64,000 nucleotides of DNA from a virus: positions 1-64,000 of the IMG/VR virus record IMGVR_UViG_3300020438_000014. One strand, given 5' to 3'. Position numbers and translations under genes: made by a program. Shown one piece after another: positions 1 through 48,312 of the stretch. Below the pieces are notes generated by a model that was given only the letters and a program-made list of their open reading frames with translations, ran no database searches and was not told the DNA's origin. Numbering within the stretch: position 1 is the first letter of the stretch; every line of letters starts with the position of its first letter.

Positions 1-104
1 CTTCCGCATTCCTTGGCGAAGTTGTAGAGTCCTTCGTCGTTTTGTATCCATAGAGCGACATTCCAAGTTGCTCTGTTTGCCCATCCGTTGTATGTATCGC
101 TCAT
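1..104 (-). CDS. conserved phage hypothetical protein, truncated by window edge
   Basis: ATG at 104; reads [27 protein letters not shown], a recurring phage YNGW..TWNVALW..NDE motif. Confidence 0.7.
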
Positions 105-106
105 AA

Positions 107-694
107 TTAGCTTGCCTTTCCGATTGTATAAGGTGAATGTTCCGTGAGTCTGTCGATGTGAGACTCAAGTTGTTGGATCAAGAAGATCACGCTTTCAAGT
201 GGTCGTGGCTCGAAGTCCATCGCTTTTCCGTTTTTTAATATAATATACATTTTAAATGTCGTTTTGGTGAACATAAACTGATTCGCCTTCAAACTTTAGC
301 GTCTCATGTTTAATGAAAACTTTTTCTTGTATGTTTCTGTCAAGGGTTGCTTGAGATATAAAGAAATCATTTTGATGTGTTTTCTTTTCTGCTTTAACGA
401 TTACAACGCAGTTGTCGTTGCTTTTGGTGAGTAGCCATTTCTTCTGATTCATTAGTTATTAGTATAAGGAGAAGTGTTGTCTTTGTCAAGCATTTTCTCG
501 TAGCAACGAGCCTTTCTTGCTATGATGGTAAAAGCGTCTGCGACTGTCCCAAGCATCTCTGCTTGCTCACCATCAAGCAGATCGTTCGCAATCGCAGGCT
601 CAATAAGTATGTTGGAGAGAACGCTCATGCACGCCTCCATTGCTTCTTCGGAGTTTCCTACTCCATCTTTATCATATTCAGAATTAATGTTCAT
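107..694 (-). other. three small coupled hypothetical CDS (107-292, 252-452, 452-694)
   Basis: abutting or overlapping minus-strand ORFs. Confidence 0.6.
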
Positions 695-800
695 AACTTT
701 TTTTGTGTTTTGGTTTTCTATTGTACTTGATGAGATTCTTGTGAGGACGAGCCTTAGTGAAGATCATCGTCTTTCTTATCTTGATTTCCCTCGTCTTCAT
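684..800 (-). CDS. 38-aa basic peptide with ArfA-like C-terminus (not in ORF track)
   Basis: MKTREIKIRKTMIFTKARPHKNLIKYNRKPKHKKSYEH; ATG lies 7 nt downstream of a -10 box. Confidence 0.65.
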   Translation of the reverse strand: MKTREIKIRKTMIFTKARPHKNLIKYNRKPKHKKSYEH

Positions 801-807
801 AGTTATA

Positions 808-835
808 AGTATGACAGATTTTGGCGTGATGTCAA
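808..835 (-). promoter_or_regulatory. early sigma70-type promoter, leaderless
   Basis: TTGACA-16nt-CATACT with TG extension; one of many near-identical copies. Confidence 0.8.
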
Positions 836-924
836 CCACTAAATCCAAAAAAATGTGCAATTATCATGCCGATCATTATGATTAGGAATGCGAGTGAGAA
901 TGTCTGTTGTTGTGTCATAGTAAA

Positions 925-1163
925 TTGGTATCGGTTTTTGACAAATGAGAACCGACGGAAAACTCTGAATCTGCTACCTTTTTCATCCATGGATTCGTCC
1001 TGCTTGGATATCAATCCTTAGACCAAGTTTCGTACTTGGCGGTTCAGAAGAGCCAAGATTACTTCCATGTAGCAAAAGTGTGAACCTCTTTCTCTCTCCC
1101 TTTCGGGTTGTAGGCGTGTTCTGACGCCTCGTTGTTCAATGCGTTTGCATCTACAGAAAGAGC
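925..1163 (-). ncRNA. putative structured ncRNA directly 3' of the tRNA-like element
   Basis: nested helices CUCUUUCU/AGAAAGAG, AGGCGU/ACGCCU, CCC-GAAA-GGG, UGCUAC/GUAGCA, CAUGGA/UCCAUG, CUUGGC/GCCAAG, UCGGUU/AACCGA; no convincing ORF. Confidence 0.55.
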
Positions 1164-1281
1164 AGGAGCGTGGGAGACTCGAACTCCCTTATTCAATCGC
1201 TATCCAATGATCAGTTGGTTGCGGGCTTAACATGTATACCGCACGAGGATTGACGCATTAACCAACATATGCTAACGCCCC
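1164..1281 (-). ncRNA. tRNA-like RNA with expanded, branched anticodon arm
   Basis: acceptor GGGGCGU/ACGCUCC, D arm GCAU..GG..AUGC, T arm GGGAG-UUCGAGU-CUCCC, stem UCAAUC/GAUUGA enclosing two hairpins. Confidence 0.75.
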
Positions 1282-1316
1282 ACAAATGAAATTGATTATC
1301 AAAAGAACTAAATACA

Positions 1317-1344
1317 ATTATGACAGAAAACGCCCAAAGGTCAA
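1317..1344 (-). promoter_or_regulatory. early promoter driving the tRNA-like RNA
   Basis: TTGACC-16nt-CATAAT. Confidence 0.75.
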
Positions 1345-1426
1345 GCAAACAATTCAACTAAGTTTGTGCACAATTCTACTGCGGGGGGCCCCTTGGCCCG
1401 CTAAACTCTTGATAATCAATAAGTTA

Positions 1427-2149
1427 CTATCTAATTGAGATTGCTTCTCCAAATAGCTTGTGAGAATATGGGTGAGTTATTCTAAAGAAAAATGAACCCC
1501 ATTGAGTGTGAGATTGTAGAACTATAAGCCCTTGCTTGAACATCTCGATAAATTTATCTGTGTTTACGCTCAAGTGAAGATTGACTTTAATATACTTGAA
1601 CTTGAGTTTGCCATGCTCGACTTTCTTGATCGCATCGCAAGCTAAGACATTCTTGAATTTAGTTTTGTAAGCATCCAAAACTCGGTCTAAATCCCAAGAG
1701 TATAGCTTGCCAAGATTTTCTTGACTAACTACAATATTCTTCTTGGTAACTTTCATTTGCAGTCCCAACTCTCGTTGCTTGGGAGCGATCTTACTGCATT
1801 TCATGTCTGCGGAATTAGGAGTAACTAGAGAACACATATCCTCTTTTGATATGAACCTTTCGGAAGGTGACTGAGTAAATAGAGATAGTTTAGAAGTAGT
1901 TGGAAGAACTCTAGTTTTGCATTCAAGTATGCCTCCCAAGTCTGCTCCTTTGTCTGAATTTGGAACTGAAGTTGGATCACATAGAAGCTCCAAAGTTTCT
2001 CCGCAAAGCCCATAATACTTATGATTATCTTGTCTGTGCGAATCATGCCAATTATCGATACCGACTTTGTCAAAGTTGTTTACCCAACCCTCTATGCTCA
2101 GTCTCTCAAACGAACTTAGGGAACAATCTCTACCTTTAATCTTTATCAT
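1427..2149 (-). CDS. MvaI/BcnI-family PD-(D/E)XK endonuclease
   Basis: GETLELL...NSDKGADLGGILECKT...LSLFTQSP pattern. Confidence 0.65.
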   Translation of the reverse strand: MIKIKGRDCSLSSFERLSIEGWVNNFDKVGIDNWHDSHRQDNHKYYGLCGETLELLCDPTSVPNSDKGADLGGILECKTRVLPTTSKLSLFTQSPSERFISKEDMCSLVTPNSADMKCSKIAPKQRELGLQMKVTKKNIVVSQENLGKLYSWDLDRVLDAYKTKFKNVLACDAIKKVEHGKLKFKYIKVNLHLSVNTDKFIEMFKQGLIVLQSHTQWGSFFFRITHPYSHKLFGEAISIR

Positions 2150-2252
2150 GTATACAAGTATGACAGGTTTTGCCTAGAAGTCAACAAGATAATTCAACAA
2201 ATTTTTTGCACCATTCAACTGCGGGGGGGCCCTGGCAGAATAGGTCAACTTT

Positions 2253-2417
2253 TTAGTATCCTAACCAAACAAGCACTTCTTGTGCATTATACTCTTGCCG
2301 ATCTCCTAAGTCATCAAAGAATTGCTCTAAGTCTTCACAGCTGTGCCTTGCTAATTCAAGCAAAGCTCTTTCTCTCGTTATGATTATATCCTCGGCTGAT
2401 TCGTAATAGTCTATCAT
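2253..2417 (-). CDS. 54-aa hypothetical protein (not in ORF track)
   Basis: MIDYYESAEDIIITRERALLEL...VLVWLGY; ATGA overlap with upstream stop. Confidence 0.65.
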   Translation of the reverse strand: MIDYYESAEDIIITRERALLELARHSCEDLEQFFDDLGDRQEYNAQEVLVWLGY

Positions 2418-3136
2418 GAGTTTACCCCTTCCAATACAAAACCCGATTCATCTTTTTTGGCTTTACCTTTTTCAATCAAGCCAACGACCACGCCACGCTT
2501 GTCAAGAAAACGCAAGTCGGTGTCATCACCATTGACAACTTGAAAACCTTTCCAAGTGTCAGGTAATTGGTTGCGAAATACTACGGCAACATTACCGCCC
2601 ATAGCAAGAACCATTTGGCATTTGGTATCATTGTTTTCCGAGCGACTAAAAGTCAAATGATAGTTTTCGGGAAACTCTTCATGTTTGCCAAGAAACTTTG
2701 CCATGCGTTGAAATGACTTTGTATAATCGTAAAATTGAGTATCCTTGAAACGCTCAAAGATAGTCAATCCTTCTGCGTCCTTCTCTTTTTCCCACATGAT
2801 GTCGCTCGTAAGGTTGAGGCGAAAGACTGCTTGCATCTCTTTCTTTAAAGCTGACTTGACCGAAGAAGAAATTTCTTTCGATAGTTTAACAAAGAAATCC
2901 ATCTTTTGCTCAAAGAAAAGTTTTGTCTTGGCAATGCGTGATTCTTGAATAGTATTCATTTGCCCACGACCTGCCGTGTTAAGGCAAGCCATCGTGCAAC
3001 CTTTGGAACGCCAACGGCAAACTTCAAAGCCCGAAAGATTAGCAGGTGCAAGGTGAATTCCCTTGGTGATGTAACCGAGCTTTTCTCCTTTGAGAATTTT
3101 TTGATTACCTGATGTGAGTAGAGTTGTCTTAATCAT
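2414..3136 (-). CDS. phage Gp88-like Cys-cluster protein
   Basis: LAPA..SG..VC.....GC...CL..AGRG, RLNLTSDI.W, FYDYTK, YHLTFS motifs. Confidence 0.7.
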   Translation of the reverse strand: MIKTTLLTSGNQKILKGEKLGYITKGIHLAPANLSGFEVCRWRSKGCTMACLNTAGRGQMNTIQESRIAKTKLFFEQKMDFFVKLSKEISSSVKSALKKEMQAVFRLNLTSDIMWEKEKDAEGLTIFERFKDTQFYDYTKSFQRMAKFLGKHEEFPENYHLTFSRSENNDTKCQMVLAMGGNVAVVFRNQLPDTWKGFQVVNGDDTDLRFLDKRGVVVGLIEKGKAKKDESGFVLEGVNS

Positions 3137-3177
3137 AGGTTTATAATGACAGAATCAAGTGAACTTGTCAAGCCTTT

Positions 3178-4394
3178 TTAGCAAAGTCTAAAAAGAAAGT
3201 CTTCAAAGAAATCGGGTTCTAAGCCAAACTCATCCATAAACATATGCTCCCATTCGGAAAGATCACCGCCATGCTCCCAATCTGCTCGCATTTCGTTGAA
3301 AAAGTTAACCACTTGCTTGACCGCCTCAGCTTGACTCAAGCCATCACGGGACATTAATACTTTTACTGTTTCTTTCATGTAATTAAGTATGACAGAATCG
3401 CTCGTAAAGTCAAGGCTATAATTCAACTAAATAGTTGACCAATCCGGCTGCGGGGGGCCCTTGGGGGTTATAACCCCTTGGGAATCAGTGGTTTACAAAA
3501 CTTGATTGCCGACTCTATATACCGACCACTCTCCGTGATCGCAATAAGGATAAGAGCCTTCAGCCCATGAAACCGCACCCTTGAGAGAGGGAAAGTAGAT
3601 TGGTGGATCACTCGGACTCGCATTATCTACAAGCATATAGACACCCTCGCGGACATCAGTAGGGGAAAGCAAAACCTCTTTCTTGTGTTGAGCCTTCCAC
3701 TCAAGGTATTCGAGTTGTTCTTGTGCGTAGCTCATGCGTCAATTGCGGTAAGAGTTCCAAGCTCAGAAGTCCACTCGTCAACGAGTTCGCAATACTCAAT
3801 ACCACCAAGGGCATTGTAATGAGTGCAAACGATCTCGATAGAGGAGAGTTCTTCTGCTCTCTCATTCATGATCTGCTCGACCTCTTGGTAGGCTGAATCC
3901 AAGCCTTCTGCGTTCTTGTCAAAAGACAGATAGGTAATTCCGTCTTCAATGATTTCATACTTTTTCGTAATCATGCTTTAATTCTATGAAATTTTTTGTT
4001 AGTTGTCAAGCCCTAATTCCTTGCGAGACTCATCTCTTAATGAGTGAAGCAAGGTTACCCAAGCAAAGTCATTGAGCTGAGCTTGGTGCATAAGCTTGGT
4101 AACTTGATCGGGAGTTTGCCAACCAAGGACATCATCAAACCTTCCCAAGGGAAGCATGGTGTCTCGATCTTGAAACCACATTGCAACTTCGTAAGTATTG
4201 TCGTTGATGTGACCATACAAGCCTGTGCCGTCATTAAGGTTTTGAACAACCGAGATCGTGAATTGATCTTGATTGTCTTTGTCTCGTTGACCGAAGGTCA
4301 ATTTTGCTTGACGAGCTTTGCCGTCTACGAATCCTCCATGTTGACCGAAAGTCAAATCATCGAAGCCTTTTAGTTGGGTCTTATTCTTAATCAT
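3178..4394 (-). other. four small hypothetical CDS (3178-3378, 3493-3735, 3732-3974, 3999-4394)
   Basis: starts reassigned to the ATG 6-7 nt after each -10 box. Confidence 0.65.
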
Positions 4395-4437
4395 GTATAT
4401 CATTATGACAGATTGTGGGTTAAAGTCAAGGCTTAAT

Positions 4438-4929
4438 TTAAACTTTTTTTGCTTTCAATGGGAGGTCGCTTGCAAGCTCAATGTTTCTTGAGTCATCATC
4501 AAAGAACCAAATCTTATCGAAGTTCTCAATGATTGAAAGTAATACTTTACGCTTTGCTTTGGCAACATTAGAATCTCCACCAACACAATGAACCTCTTGA
4601 ACCTTTACCCCTTTTGAGTAAAGAAAGTTTTTAATAACATTAGCAACGCAAGCGTTTCTTGCAGTAAGAATAAAGACAGAATGCCCTTCATCGGAGACAT
4701 CTTTTGCCAAGTCCATAAGCTTGGTTGGCTTGCCATCAAGAATCAAACTTGCCTTGTCAAAGTCAGAGAAATCATAAGATTCTCCTTCTCTTAATATGTT
4801 GGAATTGAATTCTTGAGGAGTCAACCCTTTGCGAACTAATCTTGTTGGACTCAAGACATAAACCTTTGCATCAGTAAAAGCAAGGGTATCATCAAAGTCG
4901 AATACGAAAGCCTTGTTTTCTTTAATCAT
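4438..4929 (-). CDS. HAD-superfamily phosphatase
   Basis: FDFDDTL motif I, ILTAR motif II, FFDDD motif IV; start moved to MIKENK. Confidence 0.8.
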   Translation of the reverse strand: MIKENKAFVFDFDDTLAFTDAKVYVLSPTRLVRKGLTPQEFNSNILREGESYDFSDFDKASLILDGKPTKLMDLAKDVSDEGHSVFILTARNACVANVIKNFLYSKGVKVQEVHCVGGDSNVAKAKRKVLLSIIENFDKIWFFDDDSRNIELASDLPLKAKKV

Positions 4930-5059
4930 ACTAACACTATAACCTACCAATGCGAAAAAGTCAAGGCTATAATTCAACTAAATAGTTGCACTATACGCTA
5001 GAGGGCCCCCCCGAGAGGATCGGTCAATAACCCTGCGGAATAAGTCAATCGTCTTTCGC

Positions 5060-5086
5060 AAAAAAAGCCTCTCCGAAGAGAGGCTT
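5060..5086 (-). terminator. intrinsic terminator
   Basis: GCCUCUC-UUCG-GAGAGGC followed by U7. Confidence 0.85.
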
Positions 5087-5139
5087 AGTATTTAGCTCCG
5101 TATTTGGAGCAAATGGCTCTTTATTTCGAGCCTACCAAC

Positions 5140-5370
5140 TTAACTCACCGATCTCTTGAAAGATTTGTCAGCACAAGTGGCACGAAGCACATGGCGACGA
5201 TTCACTCGACGATTACCTCCGTTGGTATCGGTAAACATAACATGACGAGAAGTCACGCCATTGACTTTAGCAGAGAACACCTTGCGTTGCTCTCCGTTTT
5301 TAACGAGAAGGGAAACGAATCGTCCCTTGAGGTTATCTACTACATTTTGAAGGTACTTTTGCTTTTTCAT
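5140..5370 (-). CDS. small basic hypothetical protein
   Basis: ORF between DUF932 gene and terminator. Confidence 0.6.
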   Translation of the reverse strand: MKKQKYLQNVVDNLKGRFVSLLVKNGEQRKVFSAKVNGVTSRHVMFTDTNGGNRRVNRRHVLRATCADKSFKRSVS

Positions 5371-5415
5371 AATTAGATGTTTTTCTTTATCGATTTAGTT
5401 TTAGTTTAGGTTAAA

Positions 5416-6162
5416 TTAGGCAACCGCTGAAGTCAATCCCACTTCGGAATCGAGAACTCCATGAAGAGCGACAGAGCGATTAGGTAGAGCATGAACACCA
5501 CCTTTAAGAACATGAGTAAACCCATTGTACAACGAGTGCATGGTTCTGTCCGAAAAGTCATCGTGTTCGGGAGTGTGCCATTGCTCGACAACATCCGCAA
5601 TCTTAGCCTTGCTGATCGCACCATTTTGGTAGGCACGAATTACGAGGTCATGGGCTTGCTCATTGCCAAGCTCATATTCCTTGTACGCTTCGATGCGTTG
5701 CTCGTCACTTGTCCAAGTCTCGGTCATCTTGCCAAGAGTCCTTGCGATAACTTGCGAAAGATCGTTAAGAATGTTCTTGGTATGTCTACGAGCGAGAGTC
5801 ACTTCGTTGGTGAAGATGAGGTTGGAGCAAACGAAAGGTGCGTTACCCATGCACAAACCTGCAGGAAAGCACTTGTCGTGAGAGTTGCGAAGACCAAGGA
5901 TCGTGCCTCGATCATCGTTGTCAGCTTCAGTTCCTTTGATGTGGAACAAGCCGAAGTAGCGTTGACCAAAGCGGTGAAGCGAATGGTAGGTATCTACAAT
6001 TTCCCATCCGTTGTCTTGGATTTGGTCTTGTACTCGATTAACGAGAAACGAGTGACCGATTGGTCGCCAAGACTCGGTTGCTTCGGGAGTTTCTACCGAC
6101 TTGACTTCGCTGAAGTCAACTTGCTTTGTGCCACATACTGAGAGATCAATTTTCTTTGTCAT
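5416..6162 (-). CDS. DUF932-family protein
   Basis: LRNSHDK....LCMG...FVCSNL...RRHT motif. Confidence 0.75.
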   Translation of the reverse strand: MTKKIDLSVCGTKQVDFSEVKSVETPEATESWRPIGHSFLVNRVQDQIQDNGWEIVDTYHSLHRFGQRYFGLFHIKGTEADNDDRGTILGLRNSHDKCFPAGLCMGNAPFVCSNLIFTNEVTLARRHTKNILNDLSQVIARTLGKMTETWTSDEQRIEAYKEYELGNEQAHDLVIRAYQNGAISKAKIADVVEQWHTPEHDDFSDRTMHSLYNGFTHVLKGGVHALPNRSVALHGVLDSEVGLTSAVA

Positions 6163-8898: not shown

Positions 8899-8920
8899 AA
8901 GTTATGATTAAGAAAATTAG

Positions 8921-9126
8921 TGTGGGAAGGGATTACTGTATACCCTCGACTTTTCGGGATGAACATCAGTTCATAGTGTTCCTACTTCGCACCACAAATT
9001 AGACTTGGTATTCGTCATCAGCTCATCCGATTGGACTCTGCTACCCCACCACAGGGAATTTGCGTACCTTAGCCCGCTCATCACAGGCTTGCTCAGTCAC
9101 CCACAGGAAGGATTATAAGCCCTTCC
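8921..9126 (-). ncRNA. manA-motif-like structured RNA
   Basis: closing stem UGUGGG/CCCACA; GUGACUGA..AAGGU 5' part and GGUAUACAGUAAUCC 3' hairpin recall the manA RNA of marine phages. Confidence 0.55.
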
Positions 9127-44425: not shown

Positions 44426-44788
44426 TGGTGGAGGTGGCGGGACTTGAACCCGCGTCCTCTGCTCTTCAACAGAATCACCTCTACAAGCTTATCCGATTTT
44501 TTTTAGAGTTATGATATCGGCATCCAACTCCTTGTTTCAATTATTTGCAGTTTGTGGAACAAATAAACTTTTATCTGTTTTGCAGATTGATGACCCCTCG
44601 TTCAATTTATCTGCGTCAATCGAGGAGAGGTTGCAGCTTTAGGCTGCAAGGGCGAGACCCTCTGGGGAGAAGGTCTCTATAGAATTAATGTTTTTAGCAT
44701 TTATTCTGCTTGTGCCTTTTAGCGAAGCCTGGCACCTCTTCGGCTTGCAGTGATCTAATCCAAACAAAGTCGAATCCGAAACACCCCC
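44426..44788 (-). ncRNA. ssrA: tmRNA
   Basis: 5' GGGGGUGUUUCGGAUUCGAC, 3' GCGGGUUCAAGUCCCGCCACCUCCACCA, G3.U pair, tag ORF 44698-44639 AKNINSIETFSPEGLALAA. Confidence 0.95.
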
Positions 44789-45368: not shown

Positions 45369-46124
45369 TTATCCTGAAAAACATGATTTACTCCAATCAA
45401 AGCATCCAAAATATATTTTTTGAAACTTATTACCTGATGTATAACCTTTAGTTACTGGATACGAATTTTCTGTATCTAGATGAATTTTAAAAACCTGTTC
45501 TTGCCCTCTAGGAAAATGTTGAGATAAGGATTTCAAAAATTGTGACTCACAATATTTTTTAGATTCATTTAGGTCCAAGTTGCTTCTATTAATTCTTGGA
45601 AATATCGAGCAATGGGCTATATTTTTTCTGAAAGACAGCTCTATTCCTTCATTATGATTTGGCATATTAAGCCTTAATGATTTGTTCAAGATGTTTATAA
45701 GGAATTTATTGTATATATAATAATATCTTTTTGAATATAAATTGTTATTAAGTTGGTGAATTACTGTTGAGGAGTAATTTTTGTCTCCAAAATAAAAAGA
45801 CTTTGTGATTTCTTCTGTGTTTAAGTTATACTTTATGCCGAAATTGAGTCCTAGAATTGAATTTTTATTTGGTTTGGGCTTGGATGAGAGTAATTCTGAT
45901 ACATGTCCATATAGTTTTCCGTCGCAAAACCATTTAAAGAAATCAGAATCTAATATTCTTTTTTGGCTATATATTTTGTAGTAAAGTTTTACTGCGGTAA
46001 TTGAGTCATTAAAGTCAAAAGCATAACCGTCTAGAGTTTTAAAACTAGATTTTAATGAACTTGAAAAATCTGTAAATTTTAGTAGATTTTCATCCTTTGC
46101 AGATATGTATCTTTTAAGATTCAT
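45369..46124 (-). CDS. hypothetical protein
   Basis: 251-aa ORF coupled to citrate-synthase-like gene. Confidence 0.6.
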   Translation of the reverse strand: MNLKRYISAKDENLLKFTDFSSSLKSSFKTLDGYAFDFNDSITAVKLYYKIYSQKRILDSDFFKWFCDGKLYGHVSELLSSKPKPNKNSILGLNFGIKYNLNTEEITKSFYFGDKNYSSTVIHQLNNNLYSKRYYYIYNKFLINILNKSLRLNMPNHNEGIELSFRKNIAHCSIFPRINRSNLDLNESKKYCESQFLKSLSQHFPRGQEQVFKIHLDTENSYPVTKGYTSGNKFQKIYFGCFDWSKSCFSG

Positions 46125-46722
46125 TTTTTATGTTTTCGAATGAAGGAACAACTTTGCTGAATTTATTTTTAGTTTTATTGTATAGCTTTAACCAGCCAAA
46201 AGATCTTCCTAGTAGGGGAAGAAATAAACAATTCTTTGATTCTATGCCATTATCTAGAGACAAGCTTGCAATGATGCATCCTATGTTCATGGGTACAGGC
46301 ATGGACTCCTCTAATAAAACTGAAAATTTCATATGGTCTCCGAATAGATGTTTAAATTTACATTTTAAATGTAAAACTCTAGGGTCTTCTCCTTTTATTG
46401 ATGGGTGTCCGAATCCTGGAATTTTCTTTCCATTATTTTCTGAAAGTAATTCGTTAATATCTTTTGTGTGATTATTAGATATAAACTCTGCAATCTGTCT
46501 TATGGGTAAATGCTCATCAGTTATGCAATTTAATCCTGACGCAATTGCGTTTGGTAGATCTGCTCCACAATTGGCGGCAAGAGCCACAACCGCTGAACTT
46601 GGGGGTTCGTTATCTATTGGGAATTCAATAAAAACAGAAGATAGCTCACTAAATAGTTCGAGTTGGTCATTGGATGGTATACTATCCCCTGTTAAATAAT
46701 TTACAATTTCATTGAATATCAT
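46114..46722 (-). CDS. citrate synthase/citryl-CoA lyase-like protein
   Basis: PPSS, AIASGL, KIPGFGHP..KGEDPR. Confidence 0.75.
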   Translation of the reverse strand: MIFNEIVNYLTGDSIPSNDQLELFSELSSVFIEFPIDNEPPSSAVVALAANCGADLPNAIASGLNCITDEHLPIRQIAEFISNNHTKDINELLSENNGKKIPGFGHPSIKGEDPRVLHLKCKFKHLFGDHMKFSVLLEESMPVPMNIGCIIASLSLDNGIESKNCLFLPLLGRSFGWLKLYNKTKNKFSKVVPSFENIKNES

Positions 46723-47212
46723 CTGCTTTTGCCTCAAATCTAAGGTATTTTATATCAGCATCCTTACTAAGCTGTTTTGCGATTTTTTGAGCGTTACATA
46801 GTGACGCTTTGTTCTCGCATTTGATCTCAAATATAAACTTCTTGATGCCCATTTTATAAAGTTGCCTGCCTAGCTCGAGCCTTAGTTCTGAGCCAATACC
46901 TTGGTTTCTAAAATCTGGGTGGCATATTGTCATCAGCCCGATGGCACAAGCCTCTTTGAAGTCATAGAATCGGTTTAACTTAGTCGAACAAAATGTGACT
47001 CCTAGCAAATCATCGTTCTCGAATATACCAATCGCAGGATCTCCGTCAGAAATGATCGGGAATATTTCTGTTGCGAAAATAGCCTCTGCGTTTTTTTCTG
47101 TTGGTAAAAGTTCGGACAAGAAGAATTGATCTTTATTTTTTAGACTTATAAGAATTAAGTCATTGATTTTTTCTTCATCATCGAAAGTTAGGCTTCTTGT
47201 GTTTCTGTTCAT
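46709..47212 (-). CDS. GNAT acetyltransferase
   Basis: HPDFRNQGIG motif A, ENKAS. Confidence 0.8.
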   Translation of the reverse strand: MNRNTRSLTFDDEEKINDLILISLKNKDQFFLSELLPTEKNAEAIFATEIFPIISDGDPAIGIFENDDLLGVTFCSTKLNRFYDFKEACAIGLMTICHPDFRNQGIGSELRLELGRQLYKMGIKKFIFEIKCENKASLCNAQKIAKQLSKDADIKYLRFEAKADDIQ

Positions 47213-48198
47213 ACTTGATGATATAAAACTTCTTTAAATATGTCAAGATTATTTCTGTGATCTCCTCCTGCATAGGAGATTGAGCTTTGAAGGTCTTGTT
47301 TTATTTCGCATAGCTTTTGTTCGTACGTCATTCCATTCGAGCATACATTGGTTAGCTTGCCTTCTATATTATTATTATGACCTTTATTTTCTGCGCTTGC
47401 AGAGCCAAAATAGGCTTTATGAGGAATACCATTAATTGTACTATTGACCGCAGGGCTATCCGTACACGAAGCAAATATACCTCCAGCCATGCTCATAGTT
47501 GCTCCTGCAACCAATGATTTTGCAATATCTCCGTTGCACTTTATTCCTCCATCTGCTATAATCGGTATTTTATCGCTAAGCTCTTCTTCAAAACCACCGA
47601 GGTATACATTTGAGCAAGACTTGGCGCAACTGAACATAGGCATGGTGAACCCAGTTTTATCTTTTGTTGTGCATGGAGAGCCTTGCCCTATTCCAACTTT
47701 AACTATGTTTGCGCCCCAGCTAGCCAAATCTTTGACTGCTGTGGGTGTGGCTACATTTCCTGCGATAATTTTTGTATTGGGTAAAAATTTCTTTACTGCA
47801 TCAATCATAATTTTCATTCTGTCGCAATGGCCGTGAGCAATATCAATTGTAATGTAATCAACTCTTTGACCTGACTTTGAAATAGCGACTAAATCTTTTT
47901 TATCACGCATTTGAACTCCTGCGCTGACTGATACTAAATCCCAGTTTTCTTTGTTCATTTCTTCAACAACTTCTTTTAATGATTGATTGAATCTATGCAT
48001 GATGTAAAAGTAATTGTTTTCGCTCATCCATTTTGCTAGGCGCATGTCGATGACGGATTTCATGTTCGCAGGAATAATCGGTAGGTTAAATTTCTTGCCG
48101 CAAAGTTCTACGTCGGTGACACAGTCAGACCTGCTATAGCATTCTGTATAATTAGGTATTAAGCAAATATCTTGGTATCTTAATGCTTTATCTGCCAT
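47209..48198 (-). CDS. guaC: GMP reductase
   Basis: PANM, IDIAHGH, AGNVAT, KVGIGQGSPCTT, IADGG, YFGSAS, LQSSISYAG. Confidence 0.93.
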   Translation of the reverse strand: MADKALRYQDICLIPNYTECYSRSDCVTDVELCGKKFNLPIIPANMKSVIDMRLAKWMSENNYFYIMHRFNQSLKEVVEEMNKENWDLVSVSAGVQMRDKKDLVAISKSGQRVDYITIDIAHGHCDRMKIMIDAVKKFLPNTKIIAGNVATPTAVKDLASWGANIVKVGIGQGSPCTTKDKTGFTMPMFSCAKSCSNVYLGGFEEELSDKIPIIADGGIKCNGDIAKSLVAGATMSMAGGIFASCTDSPAVNSTINGIPHKAYFGSASAENKGHNNNIEGKLTNVCSNGMTYEQKLCEIKQDLQSSISYAGGDHRNNLDIFKEVLYHQV

Positions 48199-48312
48199 AG
48201 AAATCATCCTCTTCTTTATCCCTTTTCCACCAAAAATAAATTCCTATTCCTCCGAAAACAAGAAAGTCTCCAGGGAAGAATTCAAAATAACTTGTTGTTG
48301 CTATAATTTCTA

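What the first reader, a model, noticed from the sequence alone, without database searches (positions are those of the whole stretch)
1164..1281. tRNA-like RNA whose anticodon loop is replaced by a two-hairpin domain
Seen: acceptor, D and T arms are canonical, but the anticodon stem opens into about 50 nt holding GCGG..CCGC and CCAA-CUGAUCA-UUGG hairpins. The acceptor has a G3.U pair (the AlaRS identity element) but the discriminator is U and no CCA is encoded. It has its own early promoter, and the insert is far too short for a group I intron. Inference: a tRNA mimic (decoy for anticodon nucleases or a ribosome/synthetase ligand) or a processing handle for the RNA downstream.
Basis: partly seen in the sequence, partly recalled or inferred. 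Interest (0 to 1): 0.8.

Follow-up and report, generated by a model that had tools for sequence, protein, structure and literature searches.

The report
Non-decoding tRNA-shaped phage RNA domain
An uncultured marine phage encodes a tRNA-shaped RNA that cannot decode: two hairpins with self-complementary tips replace its anticodon loop, and it is fused to a very conserved folded RNA, forming a widespread, uncatalogued phage RNA family of unknown function.

Summary
On the minus strand (1281-1164) lie a 7-bp acceptor stem, D arm, T arm and anticodon-proximal stem. A 51-nt domain with two hairpins sits where the anticodon loop should be. All six helices covary in 13 homologues (96.9% paired; slid controls about 40%).

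It is not a working or intron-bearing tRNA. Default ARAGORN and Rfam miss it. With introns allowed, ARAGORN assigns 40 family members inconsistent anticodons and intron sites. G3.U70 is absent from the nearest relative. No CCA is encoded.

Two nucleotides after the acceptor stem begins a conserved four-way-junction RNA (1163-1086). This junction occurs in more than 70 viral contigs, once per genome in the four records checked, and distantly in cultured Pseudomonas phage D6.

The insert's loops carry 6-nt palindromes (ACAUGU and UGAUCA here). In relatives these change but stay palindromic (25 of 45 loops against 4.9 expected).

My best reading is a tRNA-shaped scaffold, trimmed by RNase P, that displays kissing loops for self-association. 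That mechanism is inferred, not shown. No RNA-seq was available.

The scan has found this family before on other DNA (e1-5934690, e1-5814127).

The parts
1317..1344 (-). Promoter of the RNA gene: TTGACC, 16-nt spacer, TG-extended CATAAT
   Evidence: Consensus scan, 10 of 12 matches. Both hexamers are conserved in most close homologues (alignment).
1282..1310 (-). 5' leader of about 29 nt, with a boxA-like AGUUCUUUUGAUAA and U(-1) before G(+1) of the acceptor stem
   Evidence: The leader motif AGUUCUUU and the U|G junction recur in many family members. The likeness to boxA and to RNase P sites rests on my memory of those consensus sequences and was not tested.
1164..1281 (-). tRNA-shaped domain. 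Acceptor 1281-1275 with 1171-1165. D arm 1272-1255. Anticodon-proximal stem 1253-1248 with 1198-1193. T arm 1188-1172. Discriminator U at 1164.
   Evidence: Covariation in all helices. Model R1 scores it 119.9 bits. ARAGORN finds it only with the intron option. Rfam gives no hit at E<=10.
1243..1247 (-). Hypervariable 5-nt segment (CUCGU) where an anticodon would lie
   Evidence: Among homologues it reads CUCGU, AUUCC, UACA, UACU, UGCA, CUCG or CACG, even within one tRNA body type.
1221..1242 (-). Insert hairpin 1: stem GCGG/CCGC, 14-nt loop UAUACAUGUUAAGC holding the palindrome ACAUGU (1235-1230)
   Evidence: The stem covaries (GCGG/CCGC, GCAG/CUGC, GUAG/CUAC, GUGG/CCAC). At the same loop position relatives have ACUAGU, UCUAGA, CCUAGG or GUUAAC.
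1204..1218 (-). Insert hairpin 2: stem CCAA/UUGG, 7-nt loop CUGAUCA holding the palindrome UGAUCA (1213-1208)
   Evidence: The stem covaries (CCAA/UUGG against GCGA/UCGU). Relatives have UAAUUA, UAGCUA or UGUACA in the loop. CGAUCA in L082 and L094 is a partial break.
1086..1163 (-). Conserved four-way junction, starting 2 nt after the acceptor stem. P1 1162-1155 with 1093-1086. GUAG 1154-1151. P2 1150-1139. UGAACAACG 1138-1130. P3 1129-1112. ACAA 1111-1108. P4 1107-1098. AGAG 1097-1094.
   Evidence: Model R2 scores the window 107.2 bits. In 51 distinct sequences P1 has 8 of 8 and P2 4 of 4 pairs changed on both sides, with 97.2% pairing. The junction strands and the P3 sequence are nearly invariant.
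925..1085 (-). Further structured, more variable 3' modules of the same transcript, ending in the hairpin UCGGUU...AACCGA (about 958-933)
   Evidence: Shared with L057, L055 and L054. 7 of 25 predicted pairs show compensatory change. Other members carry different modules or tRNAs here.

Best explanation
The feature is the 5' domain of a non-coding phage RNA of roughly 370 nt, made from its own sigma-70-type promoter. It keeps everything that gives a tRNA its L shape: a 7-bp acceptor stem, U8, A14, the GG of the D loop and the UUCGA T loop. It has lost what is needed to decode or be charged. It has no 7-nt anticodon loop, no conserved identity elements and no CCA. Its 3' end also runs after 2 nt straight into helix P1 of a very conserved four-way junction. 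I read the tRNA body as a stable scaffold and maturation module, with RNase P cutting at the U(-1)|G(+1) junction. The scaffold holds out two hairpins whose loops are self-complementary hexamers. The most likely job of those loops is loop-loop ('kissing') pairing with the same loops of a second copy, giving a dimer or larger assembly. The four-way junction would be the conserved effector part. Shown: the fold, its conservation, non-decoding status, fusion to the junction, one copy per genome in the four records checked, and palindromic loops kept through double changes. Inferred: RNase P trimming, self-association, and any effect on the host. The stated confidence is for the whole statement. 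For 'non-decoding tRNA-shaped domain of a composite phage ncRNA' alone I would give about 0.9.
For: The fold is real: six helices covary. It is non-decoding. None of 40 distinct members is called a tRNA by default ARAGORN. With introns allowed, anticodons and intron positions (31-43) disagree even among members with the same body. Rfam gives no tRNA hit at E<=10. The fusion is real: P1 begins 2 nt after the acceptor stem in 23 of 40 members by a naive count, including every member where P1 pairing is unambiguous, and P1 and P2 covary. The four-way junction occurs once in each of 4 phage records, two of them at least 90% complete. Palindromes: 25 of 45 hairpin loops of 6 nt or more in the anticodon domains hold a 6-nt palindrome, against 4.9 +/- 2.0 (maximum 11) when loop letters are shuffled. 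At homologous positions the word changes by paired substitutions and stays self-complementary: ACUAGU/ACAUGU/UCUAGA/CCUAGG and UGAUCA/UAAUUA/UAGCUA. Members without a tRNA body (L059, L061) still show a hairpin with UCUAGA or GAUUAAUC in front of the junction. It is phage-specific: only 4 matches in 185,579 prokaryote genomes, all on MAG contigs.
Against: The palindrome counts come from related sequences, so the shuffle test overstates independence. Some members break the rule: CGAUCA in L082 and L094, no palindrome in L072 and L103, and a plain 7-nt loop UGAAAAU in L124. In L116 two copies of ACUAGU can pair within one molecule, so palindromes can also arise as stem halves. The flanks of the hairpin 1 palindrome (UAU...UAAG) are conserved too, which simple kissing does not require. 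The minimum free energy is no better than that of shuffled sequence.
Confidence: 0.45

Rival explanations
1. Processing handle only. The tRNA shape exists so that host RNase P and RNase Z (or RNase E) cut on either side of it. This gives the downstream four-way-junction RNA an exact 5' end. The released tRNA-like piece has no function of its own.
For: U(-1)|G(+1) at the 5' junction and the lack of an encoded CCA (an RNase Z determinant, from general knowledge) recur across the family. The window's genuine tRNA-Thr(UGU) does encode CCA. The junction also occurs without a tRNA body in front (L059, L061, Tetrasphaera phage TJE1). In some phages the unit sits inside a tRNA cluster (phage D6, L064, L074).
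Against: A mere handle does not explain why the insert hairpins covary and keep palindromic loops. It also does not explain the preferred 2-nt distance from the acceptor stem to P1, which leaves almost no single-stranded trailer for RNase Z.
Confidence: 0.2
2. Mimic or decoy. The L-shaped body binds and titrates a host factor that recognises tRNA elbows or acceptor stems, such as a defence nuclease, a tRNA-modifying toxin, a synthetase or the ribosome.
For: The elbow and acceptor features are strictly kept while decoding features are lost. The promoter looks like an early one. Phage tRNAs that counter tRNA-targeting defences are known (general knowledge).
Against: Anticodon nucleases need an anticodon loop, and none is conserved. 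With no free CCA end it is not a substrate for enzymes that act on the 3' end. Acceptor sequences and discriminators vary widely, so no single synthetase identity is kept. Nothing tested here points to any partner.
Confidence: 0.15
3. A real tRNA-Thr(CGU) with a 42-nt intron at position 37/38, removed by an unknown phage or host activity.
For: ARAGORN with introns allowed draws a loop with U33, anticodon CGU and G37 in the window. 'Enigmatic' tRNA introns are reported in Lak megaphages (PMC6784885).
Against: The loop is not conserved. L055 and L066 have A at position 33. The L003 group gives Val, Ile, Ala or Lys depending on single changes. The predicted introns start anywhere from position 31 to 43. 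By inspection there is no bulge-helix-bulge at the junctions, since the 5' site lies inside the stem of hairpin 1. Rfam finds no group I intron. No RNA ligase or splicing endonuclease appeared among the 27 larger window proteins scanned. The 3' end is not free.
Confidence: 0.03
4. The palindromes act in DNA. They would be binding sites for dimeric proteins or restriction-type enzymes, or scars of a small palindromic mobile insert in a dead tRNA gene.
For: All the words are classic 6-bp palindromes (TGATCA, ACATGT, ACTAGT, TCTAGA). In this window a MvaI/BcnI-family endonuclease gene lies directly upstream. Earlier scan notes describe hairpin inserts that disable tRNA copies next to nuclease genes in other phyla.
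Against: Protein sites keep their sequence, whereas here the sequence drifts and only self-complementarity is kept. The surrounding stems covary and use G.U pairs, which points to RNA. The tRNA body is under structural selection, not decaying. The endonuclease gene is absent from all relatives. No nuclease gene recurs near the RNA.
Confidence: 0.05

Closest known systems
Phage T4 species 1 and 2 RNAs (rnaC, rnaD); phage T5 RNA1/RNA2 is a comparable case that I did not examine
   Same: They are small stable phage RNAs of unknown function encoded beside tRNA genes. T4 rnaC carries a tRNA-type T arm and 3' end. The window phage is also an rIIA/rIIB-bearing large phage.
   Different: Model R2 gives no match in the T4 tRNA region. 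The T4 RNAs have no two-hairpin palindromic insert and no conserved four-way junction, and rnaD ends in CCA.
tmRNA (tRNA-like domain with a large insertion)
   Same: It is a tRNA-shaped acceptor/T-arm module in which the anticodon side is replaced by other RNA.
   Different: tmRNA has no D stem, ends in CCA, is charged with alanine through G3.U70 and carries a tag reading frame. Here the D arm is canonical, G3.U70 is not conserved, and there is no CCA and no frame. The window has a separate genuine tmRNA at 44426-44788.
tRNA genes with 'enigmatic introns' in Lak megaphages (Devoto et al. 2019, PMC6784885)
   Same: They are phage tRNA-like genes that gene finders accept only when introns are allowed, with an insert conserved between genomes.
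   Different: The Lak cases keep a definable tRNA type and anticodon. This family does not, and it is fused to a second RNA.
ROOL, GOLLD and OLE RNAs (homo-oligomeric RNA assemblies; PMC12286853)
   Same: They are large ornate RNAs that form homo-oligomeric complexes (abstract seen). That ROOL and GOLLD are often phage-borne, lie next to tRNAs and are partly held together by kissing loops is from my memory.
   Different: Rfam models give no match. This RNA is much smaller and has a tRNA scaffold. Assembly is only inferred here.
HDV-like theta ribozymes trailing phage tRNAs (PMC10879173)
   Same: They are a structured RNA placed immediately 3' of a phage tRNA and could define its 3' end.
   Different: Here P1 closes a four-way junction, with its 3' strand at the far end. 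That is not the nested double pseudoknot of HDV-like ribozymes. No Rfam ribozyme family matches at E<=10. Cleavage was not tested.

Membership tests
tRNA (Rfam RF00005) | Cloverleaf with 7-bp acceptor stem, D arm and T arm with a UUCRA loop | tested here: met
   All three are present and covary.
tRNA (Rfam RF00005) | 7-nt anticodon loop with U33 and a purine at 37, conserved among orthologues | tested here: not met
   A 51-nt domain takes its place. The candidate anticodon positions are hypervariable, and U33 is absent from L055, L066 and the L003 group.
tRNA (Rfam RF00005) | Recognised by the tRNA covariance model or by default ARAGORN | tested here: not met
   cmscan gives no hit even at E<=10. 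Default ARAGORN finds 0 of 40 members.
tRNA (Rfam RF00005) | Free 3' end with CCA, encoded or added | tested here: inconclusive
   No CCA is encoded, and P1 of the next domain starts 2 nt after the acceptor stem. Processing and CCA addition could not be examined because no reads were available.
Intron-containing tRNA (group I or bulge-helix-bulge type) | Group I core (P3-P8, over 200 nt), or a bulge-helix-bulge motif at both splice sites | tested here: not met
   The insert is 42-51 nt. No Intron_gpI hit was found. By inspection the junctions do not form two 3-nt bulges around a 4-bp helix.
Intron-containing tRNA (group I or bulge-helix-bulge type) | Same intron position and same anticodon in homologues | tested here: not met
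   Predicted intron positions range from 31 to 43, and about 15 different 'anticodons' appear in 37 calls.
tmRNA (RF00023) | tRNA-like domain with G3.U70 and CCA, plus a tag reading frame and pseudoknots | tested here: not met
   Neither Rfam nor ARAGORN calls it tmRNA. G3.U70 is not conserved.
HDV-like / theta, hatchet, twister-sister and other self-cleaving ribozymes (for the fused junction) | Match to the family model and its defining topology | tested here: not met
   No Rfam match at E<=10 over 700-1600. The topology is a plain four-way junction. Catalysis itself cannot be tested with these tools.
ROOL / GOLLD / OLE | Match to the family model; homo-oligomer formation | tested here: not met
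   No Rfam match. Oligomer formation could not be tested here.
T4 rnaC / rnaD | Sequence or structure likeness to the T4 species 1 and 2 RNAs | tested here: not met
   R2 finds nothing in the T4 tRNA region L114. BLAST of window 1-6000 against 50,697 phage records gave one unrelated 78-nt match to a Pelagibacter phage and none to T4. A BLAST of the junction alone found only TJE1, D6 and a weak match (E about 0.7) to Arthrobacter phage Waltz.

The most novel reading that the evidence does not exclude
This is a new class of self-assembling phage RNA. A tRNA scaffold displays two orthogonal self-complementary kissing loops that join copies into a dimer or a closed multimer. That assembly arrays the ultra-conserved four-way junction as the active surface. 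It would be a small, tRNA-based counterpart of the ROOL and GOLLD RNA cages, present once per genome in many large marine phages and in Pseudomonas phage D6.
Probability: 0.3. Interest if true: 0.85.

Novelty: new variant of a known kind. Interest (0 to 1): 0.7.

Why it matters
Phage-encoded tRNA-like RNAs of unknown function have been known since T4 species 1 and 2, but none has a mechanism. This family is large: more than 70 viral contigs here, from about 2 kb fragments to 459 kb records. It is single-copy in the four records checked and promoter-driven. It combines three features under clear selection: a tRNA fold, palindromic loops, and a four-way junction whose junction strands are invariant across very different phages. 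That degree of conservation suggests contact with something universal in bacterial cells, or an intrinsic activity. A distant member sits in a cultured phage (Pseudomonas phage D6, annotated 'tRNA-OTHER'), so the question can be taken to the bench. For annotation, such genes should not be called intron-bearing or 'other' tRNAs, and they should not be counted in phage tRNA repertoires.

Tried and rejected
Rfam at gathering and at E<=10 found nothing over the locus. It found only the window's tmRNA, manA RNA and tRNA-Thr elsewhere.

No whole genome is held for the window. A relative search with the upstream 240-aa protein found nothing. An exact pattern built from the window's own acceptor, D and T arms found nothing in IMG/VR.

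Most relatives of the neighbouring GP88-family gene lack the RNA within 8 kb, so that gene is not a reliable marker for it.

A neighbour-gene survey of 51 loci found only small hypothetical proteins at shifting distances and no conserved partner gene.

Pfam or PHROG scans of 27 of the larger window proteins showed no RNA ligase, splicing endonuclease or reverse transcriptase.

I considered pairing between the two insert loops. I rejected it because ACAUGU or ACUAGU is not complementary to UGAUCA, and the window's change in loop 1 is not matched in loop 2.

I considered pairing of the variable CCUCGU segment with ACGAGG of the junction. It fits the window, L052 and L090 but not L003, L024 or L055, so I dropped it.

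I considered an HDV-like fold for the junction and rejected it on strand order.

The likeness of UGCUCUUU (P1) to boxA is probably chance, since that strand covaries with its partner. The leader's AGUUCUUU motif is the better boxA candidate, but it is untested.

Literature searches found no description of this family. A 2026 preprint on three bacterial tRNA mimics concerns other motifs.

Full report
**What is there**

The window is a large phage-like contig. GC is 36.5% and nearly all genes lie on the minus strand. It carries rIIA, rIIB and a DNA ligase. It also holds a one-piece tmRNA, a manA RNA and a tRNA-Thr(UGU). No whole genome is held for it.

The finding lies on the minus strand, 1281 to 1164. 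Its parts are:
- acceptor stem GGGGCGU/ACGCUCC, with G3.U70
- U8 and A9
- D arm GCAU/AUGC, with a 10-nt loop containing GG
- a 6-bp stem UCAAUC/GAUUGA
- a 4-nt variable loop
- T arm GGGAG-UUCGAGU-CUCCC
- discriminator U, with no CCA

The 6-bp stem encloses 51 nt. These are CUCGU, hairpin 1 (GCGG, a 14-nt loop, CCGC), AA, hairpin 2 (CCAA, CUGAUCA, UUGG) and AUAGC.

Default ARAGORN and Rfam miss the element, even at E<=10. Its folding energy is no better than that of shuffled sequence (z = -0.03). The sequence alone therefore proves nothing.

**Homologues and covariation**

Relatives of the neighbouring GP88-family gene and two DNA patterns brought in IMG/VR loci with the same element.

In 13 close homologues:
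- 96.9% of cells pair.
- 21 of 30 pairs change on both sides.
- No shuffle of 500 reaches this.
- Slid registers give 37-45% pairing.

All six helices are supported, including both insert hairpins. G.U pairs fit transcription of the minus strand.

**Not a decoding tRNA and not an intron**

With introns allowed, ARAGORN calls the window's element tRNA-Thr(CGU) with a 42-nt intron at position 37/38. On 40 distinct family members the same option gives about 15 different anticodons. Intron starts range from position 31 to 43. Members that share one tRNA body come out as Val, Ile, Ala or Lys.

Several more points count against decoding or splicing:
- The 5-6 nt between the stem and hairpin 1 are the most variable part of the molecule.
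- U33 is not conserved.
- G3.U70 is confined to the window. Its nearest relative L053 has G3-C70.
- The insert is far too small for a group I intron.
- It shows no bulge-helix-bulge.
- No splicing or RNA-repair enzyme appeared among the 27 larger proteins scanned.

**It is one domain of a longer RNA**

Upstream lies a conserved TTGACC-16-CATAAT promoter at 1344-1317. A leader of about 29 nt follows, with AGUUCUUUUGAUAA and a U|G junction at the acceptor stem.

Downstream, only 2 nt after the acceptor stem (N73 plus G), a helix P1 begins. P1 closes a four-way junction:
- P1 CUCUUUCU/AGAAAGAG
- GUAG
- P2 hairpin
- UGAACAACG
- P3 AGGCGU-loop-ACGCCU
- ACAA
- P4 CCC-GAAA-GGG
- AGAG

The junction spans 1163-1086. 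A pattern from its invariant strands found 59 IMG/VR loci. A looser pattern found 77, including P3 variants such as AGGCGC/GCGCCU.

In 51 distinct sequences aligned to model R2, P1 has 8 of 8 and P2 4 of 4 pairs changed on both sides, at 97.2% pairing. P3 and the junction strands are almost invariant, although the searches were biased toward that.

The linker between the acceptor stem and P1 is 2 nt wherever P1 pairing is unambiguous. Beyond the junction the window carries further structured modules, down to about 930. L057, L055 and L054 share them, while other members have different modules or tRNAs there.

**Distribution**

Nearly every junction is preceded by a tRNA-shaped element with a canonical acceptor stem, D arm and T arm. 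The anticodon domain of these elements ranges from about 40 to 150 nt.

Variants exist:
- A few members have a plain long hairpin instead of a tRNA body (L059, L061).
- One lineage has a normal-sized but non-canonical loop, UGAAAAU (L124).

The junction occurs once in each of four phage records of 167-459 kb. Only four matches exist in 185,579 prokaryote genomes, all on MAG contigs.

Among cultured phages, Pseudomonas phage D6 has a distant member inside its tRNA cluster. There a gene annotated 'tRNA-OTHER', with a 14-nt loop, is followed by a junction with its own covarying P1 and P2. Tetrasphaera phage TJE1 has a partial match. The T4 rnaC/rnaD region does not match.

**The palindromic loops**

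The loop of hairpin 1 contains ACAUGU. The loop of hairpin 2 contains UGAUCA.

| Loop | Window | Relatives, at the homologous position |
|---|---|---|
| Hairpin 1 | ACAUGU | ACUAGU, UCUAGA, CCUAGG, GUUAAC |
| Hairpin 2 | UGAUCA | UAAUUA, UAGCUA, UGUACA |

These words differ by paired substitutions that keep self-complementarity.

Across 40 anticodon domains, 25 of 45 hairpin loops of 6 nt or more hold a 6-nt palindrome. Shuffling the loop letters gives 4.9 +/- 2.0, with a maximum of 11 in 2000 shuffles. The sequences are related, so this overstates independence. Exceptions also exist (L072, L082, L103).

A hexamer cannot pair with itself inside a 7-nt loop, and the two loops are not complementary to each other. 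The simplest reading is pairing between two copies of the RNA. A protein-binding site in DNA would be expected to keep its sequence, not merely its symmetry.

**Mechanism, and how sure**

I am about 90% sure that this is a non-decoding, tRNA-shaped domain of a composite phage ncRNA.

Three further steps are inferred:
- RNase P trims the leader.
- The tRNA body serves as a stable scaffold.
- The two loops drive self-association.

For the whole statement I give 0.45. The main rival, at 0.2, is that the tRNA shape is only a processing handle for the junction RNA. A decoy for a tRNA-binding host factor gets 0.15, splicing 0.03 and DNA-level palindromes 0.05. The function of the junction is unknown. 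Its invariant strands suggest either contact with a universal host component or an intrinsic activity.

**Comparison and novelty**

The closest known things are T4 species 1 and 2 RNAs, tmRNA, the Lak megaphage 'intron' tRNAs (PMC6784885), theta ribozymes behind phage tRNAs (PMC10879173) and the self-assembling ROOL and GOLLD RNAs (PMC12286853). The element fails the testable membership criteria of each. It is best described as a new family within the known kind 'phage tRNA-like stable RNAs'.

Earlier follow-ups in this scan reached the same family from other genomes. I re-derived the fold, the fusion and the palindromes independently here.

Noticed in passing
window 1427-2149 (-): The gene directly upstream of the RNA's promoter encodes a MvaI/BcnI-family restriction-endonuclease-like protein (Pfam PF15515, E 1e-11). 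It sits between the GP88-family gene and the RNA gene only in this phage. In relatives the RNA lies 400-600 nt after GP88, and no relative of this protein was found in IMG/VR by the pattern search.
   Followed up: partly
window 44426-44788 (-): A complete one-piece tmRNA gene in a phage contig (Rfam 160.6 bits; tag AKNINSIETFSPEGLALAA).
   Followed up: no
window 8917-9126 (-): A manA RNA motif (Rfam RF01745, 77.1 bits).
   Followed up: no
window 32650-32725 (-): A genuine tRNA-Thr(UGU) with an encoded CCA. This contrasts with the CCA-less tRNA-shaped RNA.
   Followed up: no
window 925-1085 (-): A second structured part of the same transcript. It has a closing helix around a variable core and a terminal hairpin UCGGUU...AACCGA whose loop overlaps the -35 box of the next promoter (944-917). 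L057, L055 and L054 share it. Other members have other modules here.
   Followed up: partly
window 1282-1310 (-): The leader motif AGUUCUUUUGAUAA recurs about 20 nt upstream of the tRNA-shaped domain in many members. From memory it resembles the boxA antitermination element of rRNA operons.
   Followed up: no
L073 5440-5640 (-): In this relative the junction is followed by a second tRNA-shaped RNA with different palindromic loops (UCUAGA, GUAAUUAC). After it comes a repeat of UGCUCUUUCAGUAG. Then comes a 66-nt piece that looks like the tRNA-like domain of a tmRNA alone (GGGGGUG...GGGUUCAACUCCC...CACCUCCACCA), without a tag frame.
   Followed up: partly
L113 1386-1589 (Pseudomonas phage D6, OQ363659.1 10533-10736): A gene annotated 'tRNA-OTHER', with a 14-nt anticodon loop, sits inside the tRNA cluster of a cultured 307-kb phage. 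An unannotated distant member of the four-way junction follows it directly (R2 28.9 bits).
   Followed up: partly
L124, L126, L136 (about 100 nt upstream of the junction): In this lineage the element before the junction is a normal-sized cloverleaf with a 7-nt loop UGAAAAU (G at position 33). The expanded insert is therefore not universal in the family.
   Followed up: no
window 29299-30354, 31970-32482, 46114-46737, 47209-48207 (-): Auxiliary genes: UvdE UV endonuclease, inorganic pyrophosphatase, a citrate-synthase C-terminal-like protein and an IMPDH/GMP-reductase family protein.
   Followed up: no
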